Assembly (NCBI RefSeq): GCF_055900595.2
Contig: NZ_CM148325.1
Reading direction: 5' to 3' (one strand)
DNA length: 64,000 nucleotides
In this document: positions 42,001 through 45,000 of the stretch, piece by piece
Layout: every line of letters begins with the position of its first letter
How positions within the stretch are numbered: the first letter of the stretch is position 1
Made by a program: the position numbers

Positions 42001-45000
42001 GCGCGTCTTTCAGGCGACGCAGAACCACGCAGCCGAGACCATTACCGGCCCAGGTGCCCTCAGCCGAGGCGTCAAAAGGACGACAGTGGCCATCGGGAGA
42101 GAAAATCATTCCGGGCTGGTAGCGATAGCCCGCCTGCTGGGGGAAAGAGAGCGCCACGCCGCCGGCCACCGCCATATCGGATTCGCCTGCGCGCAGGCTT
42201 TCACAGGCCAGATGCACGGCAACCAGCGAGCTGGAGCAGGCGGTCTGTACCGATAACGCCGGGCCGTGCAGGTTGAGTTTGTACGCGGCGCGGGTGGCAA
42301 TATAGTCTTTATCATTGCCCATCAGAGATTGCAGACCTTTTACCTGCGCGACTTCTGTCACGTTCAATGCTTCGCGACCGGGGTAGGTACTCATCCGGGA
42401 AGAGGCGAAAACGCCGGTCTTATGGGGGACGGCGCCGGGGGCATAACCGGCATGTTCCAGCGCATGCCAGACCGCCTGCAAAAACAGGCGCTGCTGCGGG
42501 TCCATCGACTCCGCTTCCTGTCGCGAATAGCCAAACAGGGTGGCGTCGAAGCAGTCGGCGTTGTCTAACACCGTACCGATATTGACATAATGAGGATCGT
42601 CAATGATGGCGGCATCCAGACCGACGGCCAGAAGCTCTTCGCGCGTAAAGCGTCGGCTGCATTCACGACCTTCCAGCAGATTTTGCCAGAACGTTTCGCC
42701 ATCCGGCGATTCAGGAAAATGGCAGGCGTAGCCGATAACCGCGACAGGTTCGCAGTCCGGGTAGTGTTGAGCGATCGATGCATCAATGGAATCTGCTGTC
42801 GGCGCAGAAGAGAAGCGCAAGTTATCCATAATCGGTCCCGTTTCCTAAGATTCACAAAGTCAATGGAACGCCATGCGTTCGCGATGGCGTTCCGGGGAAA
42901 ATCAGTTTGCTTCGCGCTATATCCGCCGCTGACGACGGCGAACAGGGCGAGGTCGTTTTGTTTTCTCCACCGTGGCGACGCCGGCCAGATAATCGGCCAG
43001 GGCAGCAGGAGAAGGGTGGGTGAAGAGGTCAAGCAACGTCAGGGTGGAAAATTCGTGACGTTGTAACAAAACGTGCAGTTGCACCAGATTCAGCGACGTT
43101 GCGCCCGCCTCAAAGAAGTTTTCTGCGGGCGTGACAGACTCGCCAACCACCTCGCGGAAGGCGTCGCAAATCAGGCTGACGGTGCTCTCGTCCGCCGCAA
43201 TGTGTGGCTGAGAGTGCTCAGGGCATACGCGCGGTGAGCGCTCTGCGCATTGCCCTGCGTGTTTAACGGGAGGCACCAGCGCGGCGAGCGGCAGTTGCCA
43301 GCCGCTTTCATCCTCGGCCATTCGGTTTAGCAATGCGCAATACTGTTCAAACTGGCGCTCCACCTGCCCGGCAGGAAACAGCGCGGCGACAAAATCCCAG
43401 TTAAAGCGCAGTTCGCCTTCGGATTCATAAATCTGGTGATCGAGCCAGACCTGCGGCGTCTGGGAGATGCCCCAGACCGGTTTGAGCAGATTACGCCGGG
43501 CGAGGAAGTTATCCTGCTCAAAGCCCAGTGCGCTGGTAAAGACGACGGGCATCGGAACGGCAGGCACGTTTTGCCGTTGCGCCAGTTGACGCATCACGCG
43601 GATGGCTGACACATCGCGGTGGTTGAGGTTCTGGCTCAGCCGCTGCTGTAGTGACTGCGCGCTGTGCAGCCAGCTTTCGCCGGGATGCCAGCTCAGCAGC
43701 ATCAGCGAGGTGAAATCGCCCAGAATCTGGTTGATTTGCGGGTGCAGCGGTCGCCTGTCGAAAAGCGTAAGGTTAAGCGTGAACTCAGGCTGTGCACTCC
43801 ATGCAGAGAGAACCGTTGACCACACCGACAACAGTACGGCCGACGGGGTGAGATGGGCGTCAGCCGCCCGTTTTTTCAGCCGATGCCAGCGCGTGCTGTC
43901 CAGTGCGCCGTTCAGGCGGGCGAAGCGCGGTGTTTCAACCTCCTGAGGCAAGCAGCGCAGCGGCAACGCAGGCGCCGGAGGAATATCATCAAGCTGCGCC
44001 TGCCACCATGCCAGAGAATCTGGATTGGGCGACTGTAGCGAGGGTTGTTGCAGATAATCCCTGAAGGTGACGGGCAGCGGCGGAAGCAGCTGTTGCGGGT
44101 AGCGGTAGCCGTGCTCCAGCTCCGCCAGCAGGATCTGCATGCTCAGACCGTCAAGCAACAGGTTATCCAGACACAGCCACAGGCGGGCAGGCATCCCGTC
44201 CACGTATCCGACCTGGAGATCGAATACCGGCCACACTTCGGGGTTGAGTACCTGATGCGCCAGTTTTTCGCGCACCCGCAACGCCTCTTCAGGCGTATGG
44301 AGGGTGTGTGCGGGTATCACCCAAGGGGGCGTCTGTTCGAGCACCTGTTGCTGTCCATCACGCACGATGGCGCGCAGCATATCGTGGCGGGCGATTAATC
44401 GGTTCCAGACCGTCTCCAGCCGGGTGAGGTCCAGATCGGCAATTTCAAATTCAACAAAGAAATGTGAGCCGACGCCGCCCAGGGCAAAGCCCGGCTGACG
44501 CCCCACCAGGTAAGCCTGCTGCACGTCGGTAAGCGCAAAGGGCTGGTAGCGATCTTCAGGGGAGTGGACGAATGGTTGTTCGACCGGGACGTCGGTTTTC
44601 CGCAGCGTGGCGGCAAAATCCGCCAGCCGGGGATGATTAAACAGGTCGCTTAATTGCGCTTCATAACCTGCCTGATGAAGTTGCCCGGTCAGACGGGTCG
44701 CCAGCAGGCTATCGCCGCCTTGCTGGAAGAAGTCGGTTTCTCTGGTGACATTGCCAGTTGATAAGAGTTGCTGCCAGAGGGCGGCAACCTGTTTTTCAAT
44801 GTCGCCCTGGGGTAAATCCGCTTCGGCCGGGTTTTCCGCTTCAGGGGTATGACGACGCTTCAGCGCCTGGTAGTCAATTTTCCCGTTAGCCGTCAGCGGT
44901 AAGGCGTCGAGGAATACGATCCGTTGCGGCACCATCCACCCCGGCAGACGCCCGGCGAGGGCGGCCTGAAGTTGACGGGGATCGCGGCGCACCTGCCTGT

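What the first reader, a model, noticed from the sequence alone, without database searches (positions are those of the whole stretch)
42830..42916. Perfect 10-bp hairpin between irp2 and irp1
In the 87-bp irp2-irp1 intercistronic spacer, a 10-bp perfect stem with a 9-nt loop (ggaacgccat gcgttcgcg atggcgttcc, 42864-42892) precedes the irp1 RBS. No U-tract follows on the transcript, so it is unlikely to be an intrinsic terminator. It could stabilise the upstream mRNA segment or modulate coupling between the two very large synthetase genes.
Basis: seen in the sequence. Interest (0 to 1): 0.3.

Follow-up and report, generated by a model that had tools for sequence, protein, structure and literature searches.

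The report
Stem-loop between irp2 and irp1
A real, strong RNA hairpin lies in the untranslated gap between the two giant yersiniabactin synthetase genes of E. coli; it is not a terminator and most likely marks an mRNA decay or processing boundary, which is an ordinary kind of element and is untested here.

Summary
The genes are on the minus strand.

- **Structure:** the mRNA folds as 10 bp, a 1-nt bulge, 2 bp and a GAAC loop (-20.2 kcal/mol). Pair probabilities are about 1 in every context tried.
- **Not a terminator or known family:** no U-tract follows, it is single-copy and it matches no Rfam family.
- **How unusual it is:** the perfect repeat is unique in the 19-kb operon. Stability alone is not exceptional, since 42 loci in the operon RNA fold as well.
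- **Lineage-specific:** Photorhabdus, Comamonas and Morganella orthologues have overlapping stop and start codons, with no spacer and no hairpin.
- **Conservation among 14 island alleles:** only a 6+2-bp GC core is invariant. The outer four pairs are broken without compensation in Salmonella and K. michiganensis types.
- **Evidence for constraint:** the K. oxytoca type differs at 7 of 29 hairpin positions yet folds at -22.0 kcal/mol. Random 7-substitution mutants average -7.7 (P about 2e-4).

Best reading: a ribosome-free intercistronic stem-loop acting as an mRNA decay or processing boundary (malE-malF or papBA type). This is inferred from anatomy only. Low interest; a new member of a known kind.

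The parts
42917..42919 (-). irp2 (HMWP2) stop codon UAG
   Evidence: ORF 42917..49042 (-); transcript-orientation read; RefSeq irp2 CDS ends at the same place in identical E. coli DNA.
42830..42916 (-). 87-nt untranslated irp2-irp1 spacer. It is the only sizeable gap inside the irp2-irp1-ybtU-ybtT-ybtE operon, and it is specific to the Yersinia-type island lineage.
   Evidence: The other operon junctions overlap or are 3 nt or less. Orthologues in Photorhabdus, Comamonas and Morganella have overlapping stop and start codons. No feature is annotated here in RefSeq.
42894..42903 (-). Single-stranded U/C-rich 5' flank GAUUUUCCCC. It contains a GA|UUU match to the RNase E RN|WUU motif about 8 nt before the stem.
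   Evidence: Sequence; motif definition from PMC5927463. The motif carries little information, so this is inference only.
42884..42893 (-). 5' arm of the hairpin on the mRNA (GGAACGCCAU)
42875..42883 (-). Apical part CGCGAACGC: a bulged C, two inner pairs (G-C, C-G) and a GAAC tetraloop (42877-42880)
   Evidence: Minimum-free-energy and centroid structures; the inner pairs are invariant in 14 alleles.
42865..42874 (-). 3' arm of the hairpin on the mRNA (AUGGCGUUCC)
42853..42864 (-). 3' flank AUUGACUUUGUG. It is an interrupted U-rich stretch, not a terminator U-tract, and contains an AC|UUU RN|WUU-like site. It is nearly invariant among island alleles.
   Evidence: (tail score 1.33).
42836..42846 (-). 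irp1 ribosome-binding region: AGGA (42843-42846) and GGGA (42836-42839). The second is the likelier Shine-Dalgarno, because some K. oxytoca-type alleles have AGAAAA in place of AGGAAA.
42827..42829 (-). irp1 (HMWP1) start codon AUG

Best explanation
The element is an RNA stem-loop in the irp2-irp1-ybtUTE polycistronic mRNA. It sits in an untranslated 87-nt spacer that only the Yersinia-type high-pathogenicity-island lineage has. It occupies spacer nt 24-52. That is beyond the reach of a ribosome terminating at the irp2 UAG and upstream of a ribosome initiating at the irp1 AUG. It is therefore the one place in a roughly 19-kb mRNA where a stable helix can persist. It most likely acts as a decay or processing boundary. 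One option is that it blocks 3'-to-5' exonucleases after endonucleolytic cleavage downstream, protecting the irp2 segment (malE-malF type). The other is that it forms a protective 5' structure on an irp1-ybtUTE fragment after RNase E cleavage in the U-rich flank (papBA type). Either way it would tune the irp2:irp1 mRNA ratio rather than stop transcription. Shown: the hairpin, its position, the lack of a U-tract, its single-copy status, its lineage restriction and its partial structural conservation. Inferred: the ribosome-free geometry, RNase involvement and any effect on stoichiometry.
For: - The hairpin is stable and forms robustly.
- It lies within one transcription unit (PMC8805033; PMC2231364).
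- It has no canonical U-tract.
- Its energy of -20.2 kcal/mol falls mid-range among 26 term-seq-mapped protective operon-internal hairpins in E. coli, which span -8.9 to -30.7 and also lack U-tracts (text).
- All 14 distinct island alleles keep a hairpin here, with an invariant 6+2-bp core.
- The K. oxytoca-type allele differs at 7 of 29 hairpin positions but folds at -22.0 kcal/mol. Across 5000 random 7-substitution mutants the mean was -7.7, and the fraction as stable was 0.0002. The changes include an A-U to G-C double change.
- The hairpin sequence diverges at a near-neutral rate (7/29, against 0.28-0.31 at four-fold sites), while the structure is kept. This argues for recognition of structure rather than sequence.
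- RN|WUU-like sites lie in both single-stranded flanks.
Against: - No RNA 3'/5'-end, decay or abundance data for this junction could be examined.
- Three lineages (Salmonella types, K. michiganensis type) carry uncompensated changes. These weaken the hairpin to -12 to -13 kcal/mol, exactly as random mutation would.
- The Salmonella pESI system with a weakened allele is reported to contribute to oxidative-stress tolerance and pathogenicity (PMC11225919).
- Distant orthologues manage without a spacer or hairpin.
- Stability alone is unremarkable in this GC-rich operon.
- The compensatory evidence comes from a single lineage, so from few events. Template-switch mutation in quasi-palindromes could produce it without selection.
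- The RNase E motif is too short to be significant.
Confidence: 0.4

Rival explanations
1. A functionless remnant. The hairpin came in with whatever DNA created the 87-nt spacer in the island lineage, for example a fragment carrying a former terminator stem or a short palindrome. It persists because the island is young and nearly clonal, and it is slowly decaying.
For: The spacer is absent from all distant irp2-irp1 orthologues. Among E. coli, 2228 of 2265 copies are identical over the 37-mer, reflecting low island diversity rather than demonstrated selection. The outer four pairs are broken without compensation in three lineages, with energies matching random-mutation expectations. The hairpin is the most variable part of the spacer.
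Against: The K. oxytoca allele keeps or increases stability despite 7 of 29 changes (P about 2e-4). No allele has lost the GC core. Chance expectation for a perfect 10-bp stem in 87 nt is about 0.001.
Confidence: 0.27
2. A weak intrinsic terminator, attenuator or hairpin-stabilised RNA polymerase pause. It would reduce or delay transcription into irp1, giving less HMWP1 than HMWP2 or letting ribosomes load at the irp1 RBS.
For: The stem is GC-rich and followed by a U-containing tail, AUUGACUUUGUG, with 6 U in 12 nt. The consensus scan flags a sub-hairpin with tail CATTGACTTT.
Against: That scan found 2 sites against 2.4 expected by chance. The tail score is 1.33, with no run of more than 3 U and an A directly after the stem. 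By comparison, the hairpin at 13789-13816 in this window runs straight into 6 consecutive T. irp1 expression depends on read-through from the single irp2 promoter, as there are four transcription units in all (PMC8805033).
Confidence: 0.1
3. A translation or polarity device. By folding the middle of the spacer, the hairpin would keep the AU-rich region before the irp1 RBS single-stranded as a standby or insulator site. It would also split the untranslated RNA into 23- and 35-nt pieces, too short for Rho loading. Alternatively, the UCCC just 5' of the stem pairs with the GGGA Shine-Dalgarno.
For: The 3' flank and RBS are the most conserved part of the spacer, with 2 of 35 changes in K. oxytoca. 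RNAalifold proposes a UCCC/GGGA helix with a C-G to U-A double change in K. oxytoca alleles and C-G to U-G in seven alleles. All other junctions in the operon, and the same junction in distant orthologues, are translationally coupled.
Against: The 4-bp helix has probability 0.16 in the window allele. It is not the best partner in K. oxytoca, and it is strong only in K. michiganensis. Predicted RBS accessibility swings with the context used. The spacer is not C-rich: 23 C against 22 G. There is no direct evidence on Rho.
Confidence: 0.12
4. A DNA-level palindromic operator bound by a dimeric regulator (YbtA, Fur or another), or a CsrA or other RNA-protein site.
For: The dyad is perfect, with 10-bp arms. 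GGA motifs lie in the stem base and near the RBS. CsrA is known to regulate the island through the ybtA leader (PMC8805033).
Against: No promoter-like site lies within 42000-43800 on either strand. The arms change at 5 of 20 positions in K. oxytoca in a pair-preserving way, and the loop changes too. There is no second copy of the half-site pattern in the window. The published ACARGGA screen of the island lists seven sites, none in this spacer. The GGA lies in the stem, not in a loop.
Confidence: 0.04

Closest known systems
Operon-internal protective 3' hairpins (malE-malF type; set mapped by Dar & Sorek 2018, PMC5927463)
   Same: It lies between two consecutive genes of one operon. It is a stable GC-rich stem-loop (-20.2 kcal/mol; published set -8.9 to -30.7). 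No U-tract follows. Single-stranded U-rich sequence lies just downstream.
   Different: No 3' end or differential decay has been mapped here. Most published cases lie inside the downstream ORF, whereas this one lies in a true untranslated spacer. The malE-malF element is a dispersed REP repeat, and this one is single-copy.
papB-papA intercistronic hairpin (RNase E cleavage upstream of a 5'-protective stem-loop)
   Same: The hairpin is in an intercistronic region and is preceded by an unstructured U-rich stretch with an RN|WUU-like site (GA|UUU). The downstream segment (irp1-ybtUTE) would begin with a structured 5' end.
   Different: Cleavage has not been demonstrated. There is no evidence that irp1 mRNA outlives irp2 mRNA.
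Intrinsic (Rho-independent) terminator
   Same: A GC-rich stem-loop located after a stop codon.
   Different: It lacks the U-tract, it sits inside an operon, and the downstream genes depend on read-through.
REP/BIME palindromic elements of Enterobacteriaceae
   Same: A short GC-rich intergenic palindrome inside an operon.
   Different: It is not repeated: one place per island, with no match in any of the 3161 E. coli genomes that lack the island.

Membership tests
Intrinsic terminator | GC-rich stem-loop | tested here: met
   10+2 bp, -20.2 kcal/mol.
Intrinsic terminator | Uninterrupted U-tract immediately 3' of the stem | tested here: not met
   The tail is AUUGACUUUGUGAAU, tail score 1.33. 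The consensus scan hit is within chance, 2 found against 2.4 expected.
Intrinsic terminator | Lies at the end of a transcription unit | tested here: not met
   It lies between irp2 and irp1 of the irp2-irp1-ybtUTE unit (PMC8805033; PMC2231364). No promoter-like site lies downstream.
Operon-internal protective hairpin (differential mRNA decay) | Located between or within consecutive genes of one operon | tested here: met
Operon-internal protective hairpin (differential mRNA decay) | Energetically stable hairpin not followed by a U-tract | tested here: met
   comparison with the S6 table of PMC5927463.
Operon-internal protective hairpin (differential mRNA decay) | Stable RNA 3' end (or RNase E-dependent 5' end) mapped next to the hairpin | not testable with these tools
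   No term-seq or 5'-end data were accessible. Literature searches for irp2 with term-seq, stem-loop, terminator or intergenic found nothing relevant.
Operon-internal protective hairpin (differential mRNA decay) | Different half-life or abundance of the upstream and downstream segments | not testable with these tools
   Needs rifampicin-chase RNA-seq in an island-positive strain.
Operon-internal protective hairpin (differential mRNA decay) | Structure conserved in relatives | tested here: inconclusive
   The core of 6+2 bp is invariant in 14 alleles, and the K. oxytoca allele is structure-preserving (P about 2e-4). The outer 4 bp are broken in 3 lineages, and the element is absent from distant orthologues.
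REP/BIME or other dispersed palindromic repeat | Many copies per genome | tested here: not met
   Median 1 place per genome (maximum 2); 2265 genomes matched, all at the irp2-irp1 site in every record listed; matches only in genomes that also match the 287-bp junction. No second copy in the window.
Any Rfam RNA family | Covariance-model match | tested here: not met
   No match at E up to 10 in 42500-43300.
CsrA binding site | GGA in a hairpin loop or an ACARGGA-like motif | tested here: not met
   The GGA lies at the stem base and the loop is GAAC. The published island screen lists no site in the spacer.

The most novel reading that the evidence does not exclude
The island lineage converted an ancestral, translationally coupled irp2/irp1 junction (overlapping stop and start codons, as in Photorhabdus, Comamonas and Morganella) into an uncoupled one. 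It did so by acquiring an 87-nt spacer whose ribosome-free hairpin is a dedicated processing or stability switch. That switch would set the HMWP2:HMWP1 ratio, or shield the 9.5-kb irp1 message from polarity, adding a post-transcriptional control point to a major virulence siderophore pathway.
Probability: 0.12. Interest if true: 0.4.

Novelty: new member of a known kind. Interest (0 to 1): 0.2.

Why it matters
If the hairpin sets the relative stability of the irp2 and irp1 mRNA segments, it would be a small post-transcriptional control point in yersiniabactin synthesis. The locus is present in 42% of complete E. coli genomes here and is important in Yersinia, Klebsiella and Salmonella virulence. 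It would also be a handle for engineering heterologous yersiniabactin production. As it stands it is an ordinary-looking intercistronic stem-loop. The more informative result is evolutionary: the spacer that hosts it is specific to the island lineage, and distant orthologues have overlapping genes at this junction.

Tried and rejected
- **Rfam:** a scan of 42500-43300 at E up to 10 found nothing.
- **Promoter and terminator scans:** no promoter on either strand, and terminator-like hits at chance level.
- **Dispersed repeat (REP, ERIC, MITE):** rejected. The element is single-copy per genome and has no partial copy in the window.
- **Spurious ORFs across the spacer:** 42590-43066 (+) and 42565-43032 (-) have no Pfam match.
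- **Anti-Shine-Dalgarno helix:** UCCC/GGGA pairing was suggested by RNAalifold. It is only 4 bp and not consistently predicted across alleles, so it is kept only as part of a minor rival.
- **RyhB seed match:** by eye, GAAGCAA at the 5' end of the spacer matches the RyhB seed. It is not conserved (G to C or A in the K. oxytoca and K. michiganensis types) and lies far from the RBS, so it was rejected.
- **ops, boxA and nut-like antitermination signals:** no match by inspection.
- **Literature:** searches for a prior description, or for term-seq or sRNA data at this junction, found nothing relevant. The original irp2 and irp1 sequencing papers and a Ybt review are not held, so an early mention cannot be excluded.
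- **d'Aubenton-Carafa-style discriminant:** it is not calibrated for modern energy parameters. The hairpins I boxed as comparison terminators also scored negative, because their U-tracts were included in the stems. Only the tail score is used.
- **Metagenome scan:** it returned only K. oxytoca-complex alleles from 14 loci, which added little new stem variation.

Full report
**Observation**

The window is E. coli chromosomal DNA carrying the Yersinia-type high-pathogenicity island next to a tRNA-Asn gene. The yersiniabactin genes run on the minus strand. irp2 is the ORF 42917..49042 and irp1 is 33338..42829, leaving an 87-nt spacer at 42830-42916. RefSeq annotation of identical E. coli DNA uses the same boundaries.

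The inverted repeat GGAACGCCAT / ATGGCGTTCC, with 9 nt between the arms, lies at 42865-42874 and 42884-42893. On the mRNA the element reads GGAACGCCAU-CGCGAACGC-AUGGCGUUCC. It folds as 10 bp, a bulged C, two more pairs and a GAAC tetraloop.

- Folding energy is -20.2 kcal/mol for 37 nt, z = -3.8.
- All ten pairs have probability 0.92-1.00 when folded within 87 to 800 nt of context.

**Is it more than chance?**

There are two measures, and they disagree in strength.

- *Perfect repeat:* a perfect 10-bp stem with a 3-12-nt loop is expected 0.67 times per 64 kb, so about 0.001 times per 87 nt. It is the only one inside the irp2-ybtE operon. The other perfect stems in the window are mostly intergenic terminator-like or operator-like palindromes.
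- *Predicted energy:* by this measure it is not unusual for the locus. The operon RNA is 60% GC, and 42 separate places have a 45-nt window folding at or below -20.2 kcal/mol.

What sets it apart is the exact repeat and its position in untranslated RNA, not its stability.

**What it is not**

- *Known RNA family:* no Rfam family matches.
- *Terminator:* no U-tract follows. The transcript continues AUUGACUUUGUGAAU, with a tail score of 1.33. The terminator-pattern scan gives as many hits as shuffled sequence.
- *Promoter:* no sigma-70-like promoter lies within 900 nt on either strand.
- *Dispersed repeat:* 2265 of 5426 complete E. coli genomes carry the spacer. Those genomes have a median of one place each (maximum two), at the irp2-irp1 site in every record listed, and no genome lacking the junction has any match. 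There is no partial copy in the window.
- *Operon end:* the literature treats irp2-irp1-ybtUTE as one of four transcription units of the island (PMC8805033; PMC2231364; PMC11225919).

**Context**

This is the only real gap in the operon. irp1/ybtU and ybtU/ybtT overlap, and ybtT/ybtE are 3 nt apart.

A genome-wide search with the irp1 N-terminus found true orthologues at 63-73% identity. The upstream gene is an irp2 homologue in Photorhabdus (nine species) and Comamonas, and in Morganella, which was found separately through the protein-homologue search. In all three, its stop codon overlaps the irp1-like start codon (TAATG, GTGA, ATGA). They have no spacer and no hairpin. The irp2 C-termini end at the homologous basic tail, and island irp1 has about 10-14 extra N-terminal residues.

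The spacer with its hairpin is therefore a derived feature of the island lineage. It replaced a translationally coupled junction.

**Variation within the island lineage**

I collected 14 distinct spacer alleles from E. coli, Klebsiella and Salmonella records, from species representatives and from metagenomes. Pair counting gives:

- Six stem pairs (CGCC-A/G-U with A/G-U/C-GGCG) and the two inner pairs are always formed.
- One pair changes on both sides (A-U to G-C) in the K. oxytoca type.
- One pair goes from U-A to U-G.
- The four outer pairs are broken in 3 to 8 alleles, with no compensation. These include GG to AA in Salmonella types, a 1-nt deletion plus two substitutions in the K. michiganensis type, and G.G in the K. 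oxytoca type.

Energies are -20.2 (window), -13.3 and -12.7 (Salmonella types), -12.0 (K. michiganensis type) and -22.0 (K. oxytoca type) kcal/mol.

A mutation simulation shows the weakened alleles are what random substitution would give. The K. oxytoca allele is not: it has 7 substitutions in 29 nt, random 7-substitution mutants average -7.7, and only 0.02% are as stable. Its changes shift the bulge, add an inner pair and create a GCAA loop.

Against K. oxytoca, the hairpin diverges at 7/29. That is close to the four-fold-site rate of 0.28-0.31. The flanks diverge at 5/58. The sequence therefore drifts while a hairpin is kept. This argues against a sequence-specific protein site and gives modest support for structural constraint. 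The caveat is that this rests on essentially one lineage. Template-switch mutation in quasi-palindromes can also create paired changes without selection.

**Mechanism**

The hairpin occupies spacer nt 24-52. A ribosome stopping at the irp2 UAG should cover roughly the first dozen nucleotides. One starting at the irp1 AUG should cover roughly the last twenty. By inference from standard ribosome footprints, the helix should never be melted by translation, unlike the 41 equally stable structures inside the ORFs.

Dar & Sorek (PMC5927463) mapped 26 operon-internal hairpins in E. coli. They are stable (-8.9 to -30.7 kcal/mol), lack U-tracts and sit just upstream of stable 3' ends. These hairpins protect the upstream gene from 3' exonucleases (malE-malF type). 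The authors also describe papBA-type cases, in which RNase E cuts an RN|WUU site just upstream of a hairpin that then protects the downstream segment.

The irp2-irp1 hairpin meets every sequence-level criterion of this class, and RN|WUU-like sites lie in both single-stranded flanks. That motif is too short to carry weight. I therefore rate 'decay or processing boundary' as the best explanation (0.4). The defining experimental features, mapped ends and differential decay, could not be tested.

Rivals are:

- a neutral remnant of the insertion that created the spacer (0.27);
- a translation or Rho-polarity insulator, including a weak UCCC/GGGA anti-Shine-Dalgarno idea that did not hold up across alleles (0.12);
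- a weak terminator or pause (0.1);
- a protein operator or CsrA site (0.04).

**Verdict**

The hairpin is real and non-random. It is not a terminator, and it is partly conserved as a structure. It is an ordinary kind of element with an untested function. Its perfection is a property of the common allele only, and the Salmonella pESI-type island with a weakened stem is reported to be functional (PMC11225919). Interest is low.

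Noticed in passing
window 49099-49132 and 49151-49183: There are two long perfect palindromes in the ybtA-irp2 intergenic region. One has a 13-bp stem (49151-49183) followed on the minus strand by TCTTTCC, so it looks like the ybtA terminator. The other is ACCCGAAACGGG-N10-CCCGTTTCGGGT (49099-49132) in the irp2 promoter region, a candidate YbtA repeat site.
   Followed up: no
window 42770-42829 (irp1 codons 1-20): The first 60 nt of irp1, together with the RBS region, are almost invariant among island alleles that differ by about 28% at four-fold sites elsewhere. This suggests nucleotide-level constraint on the irp1 translation-initiation region, or a local recombination tract.
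   Followed up: partly
L085 (Morganella) +30 and L012 (Photorhabdus) +54 from the irp1-like start: In two orthologues that lack the spacer, the most stable 45-nt window of the whole 3.9-4.3-kb locus (top 0.1-0.2%) lies just inside the irp1-like ORF. A junction-proximal structure may therefore be a recurring feature of these operons.
   Followed up: partly
L004 (E. coli MS10711), position equivalent to window 42918: The irp2 stop codon is TAG to TCG, so the reading frame runs 15 nt into the spacer to a TGA. RefSeq marks this irp2 as a frameshifted pseudogene.
   Followed up: no
L003 (K. pneumoniae INF007 plasmid 2), equivalent to window 42898-42907: A 10-nt deletion (AAACTGATTT) lies in the spacer just 5' of the hairpin. 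It removes most of the U-rich flank but leaves the stem intact.
   Followed up: no
E. coli 23CRST050 (NZ_AP045825.1), equivalent to about window 42844: The match to the spacer stops at spacer nt 73, and the record has two places for the longer junction query. This points to a probable insertion or rearrangement between the hairpin and the irp1 start.
   Followed up: no
L089, L093, L096, L099 (K. oxytoca-type alleles), equivalent to window 42841-42846: AGGAAA is AGAAAA in these alleles. The GGGA/GAGA at -12 to -9 is therefore more likely the functional irp1 Shine-Dalgarno than the AGGA.
   Followed up: no
window 13823-18130 and 58155-58230: The window contains four tRNA-Asn genes. The island abuts the one at 58155-58230, with an integrase-sized ORF (not checked for identity) at 56731-57774. 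The left end of the window (1-6000) carries an ISL3 transposase and inovirus-like genes in matching E. coli records.
   Followed up: no
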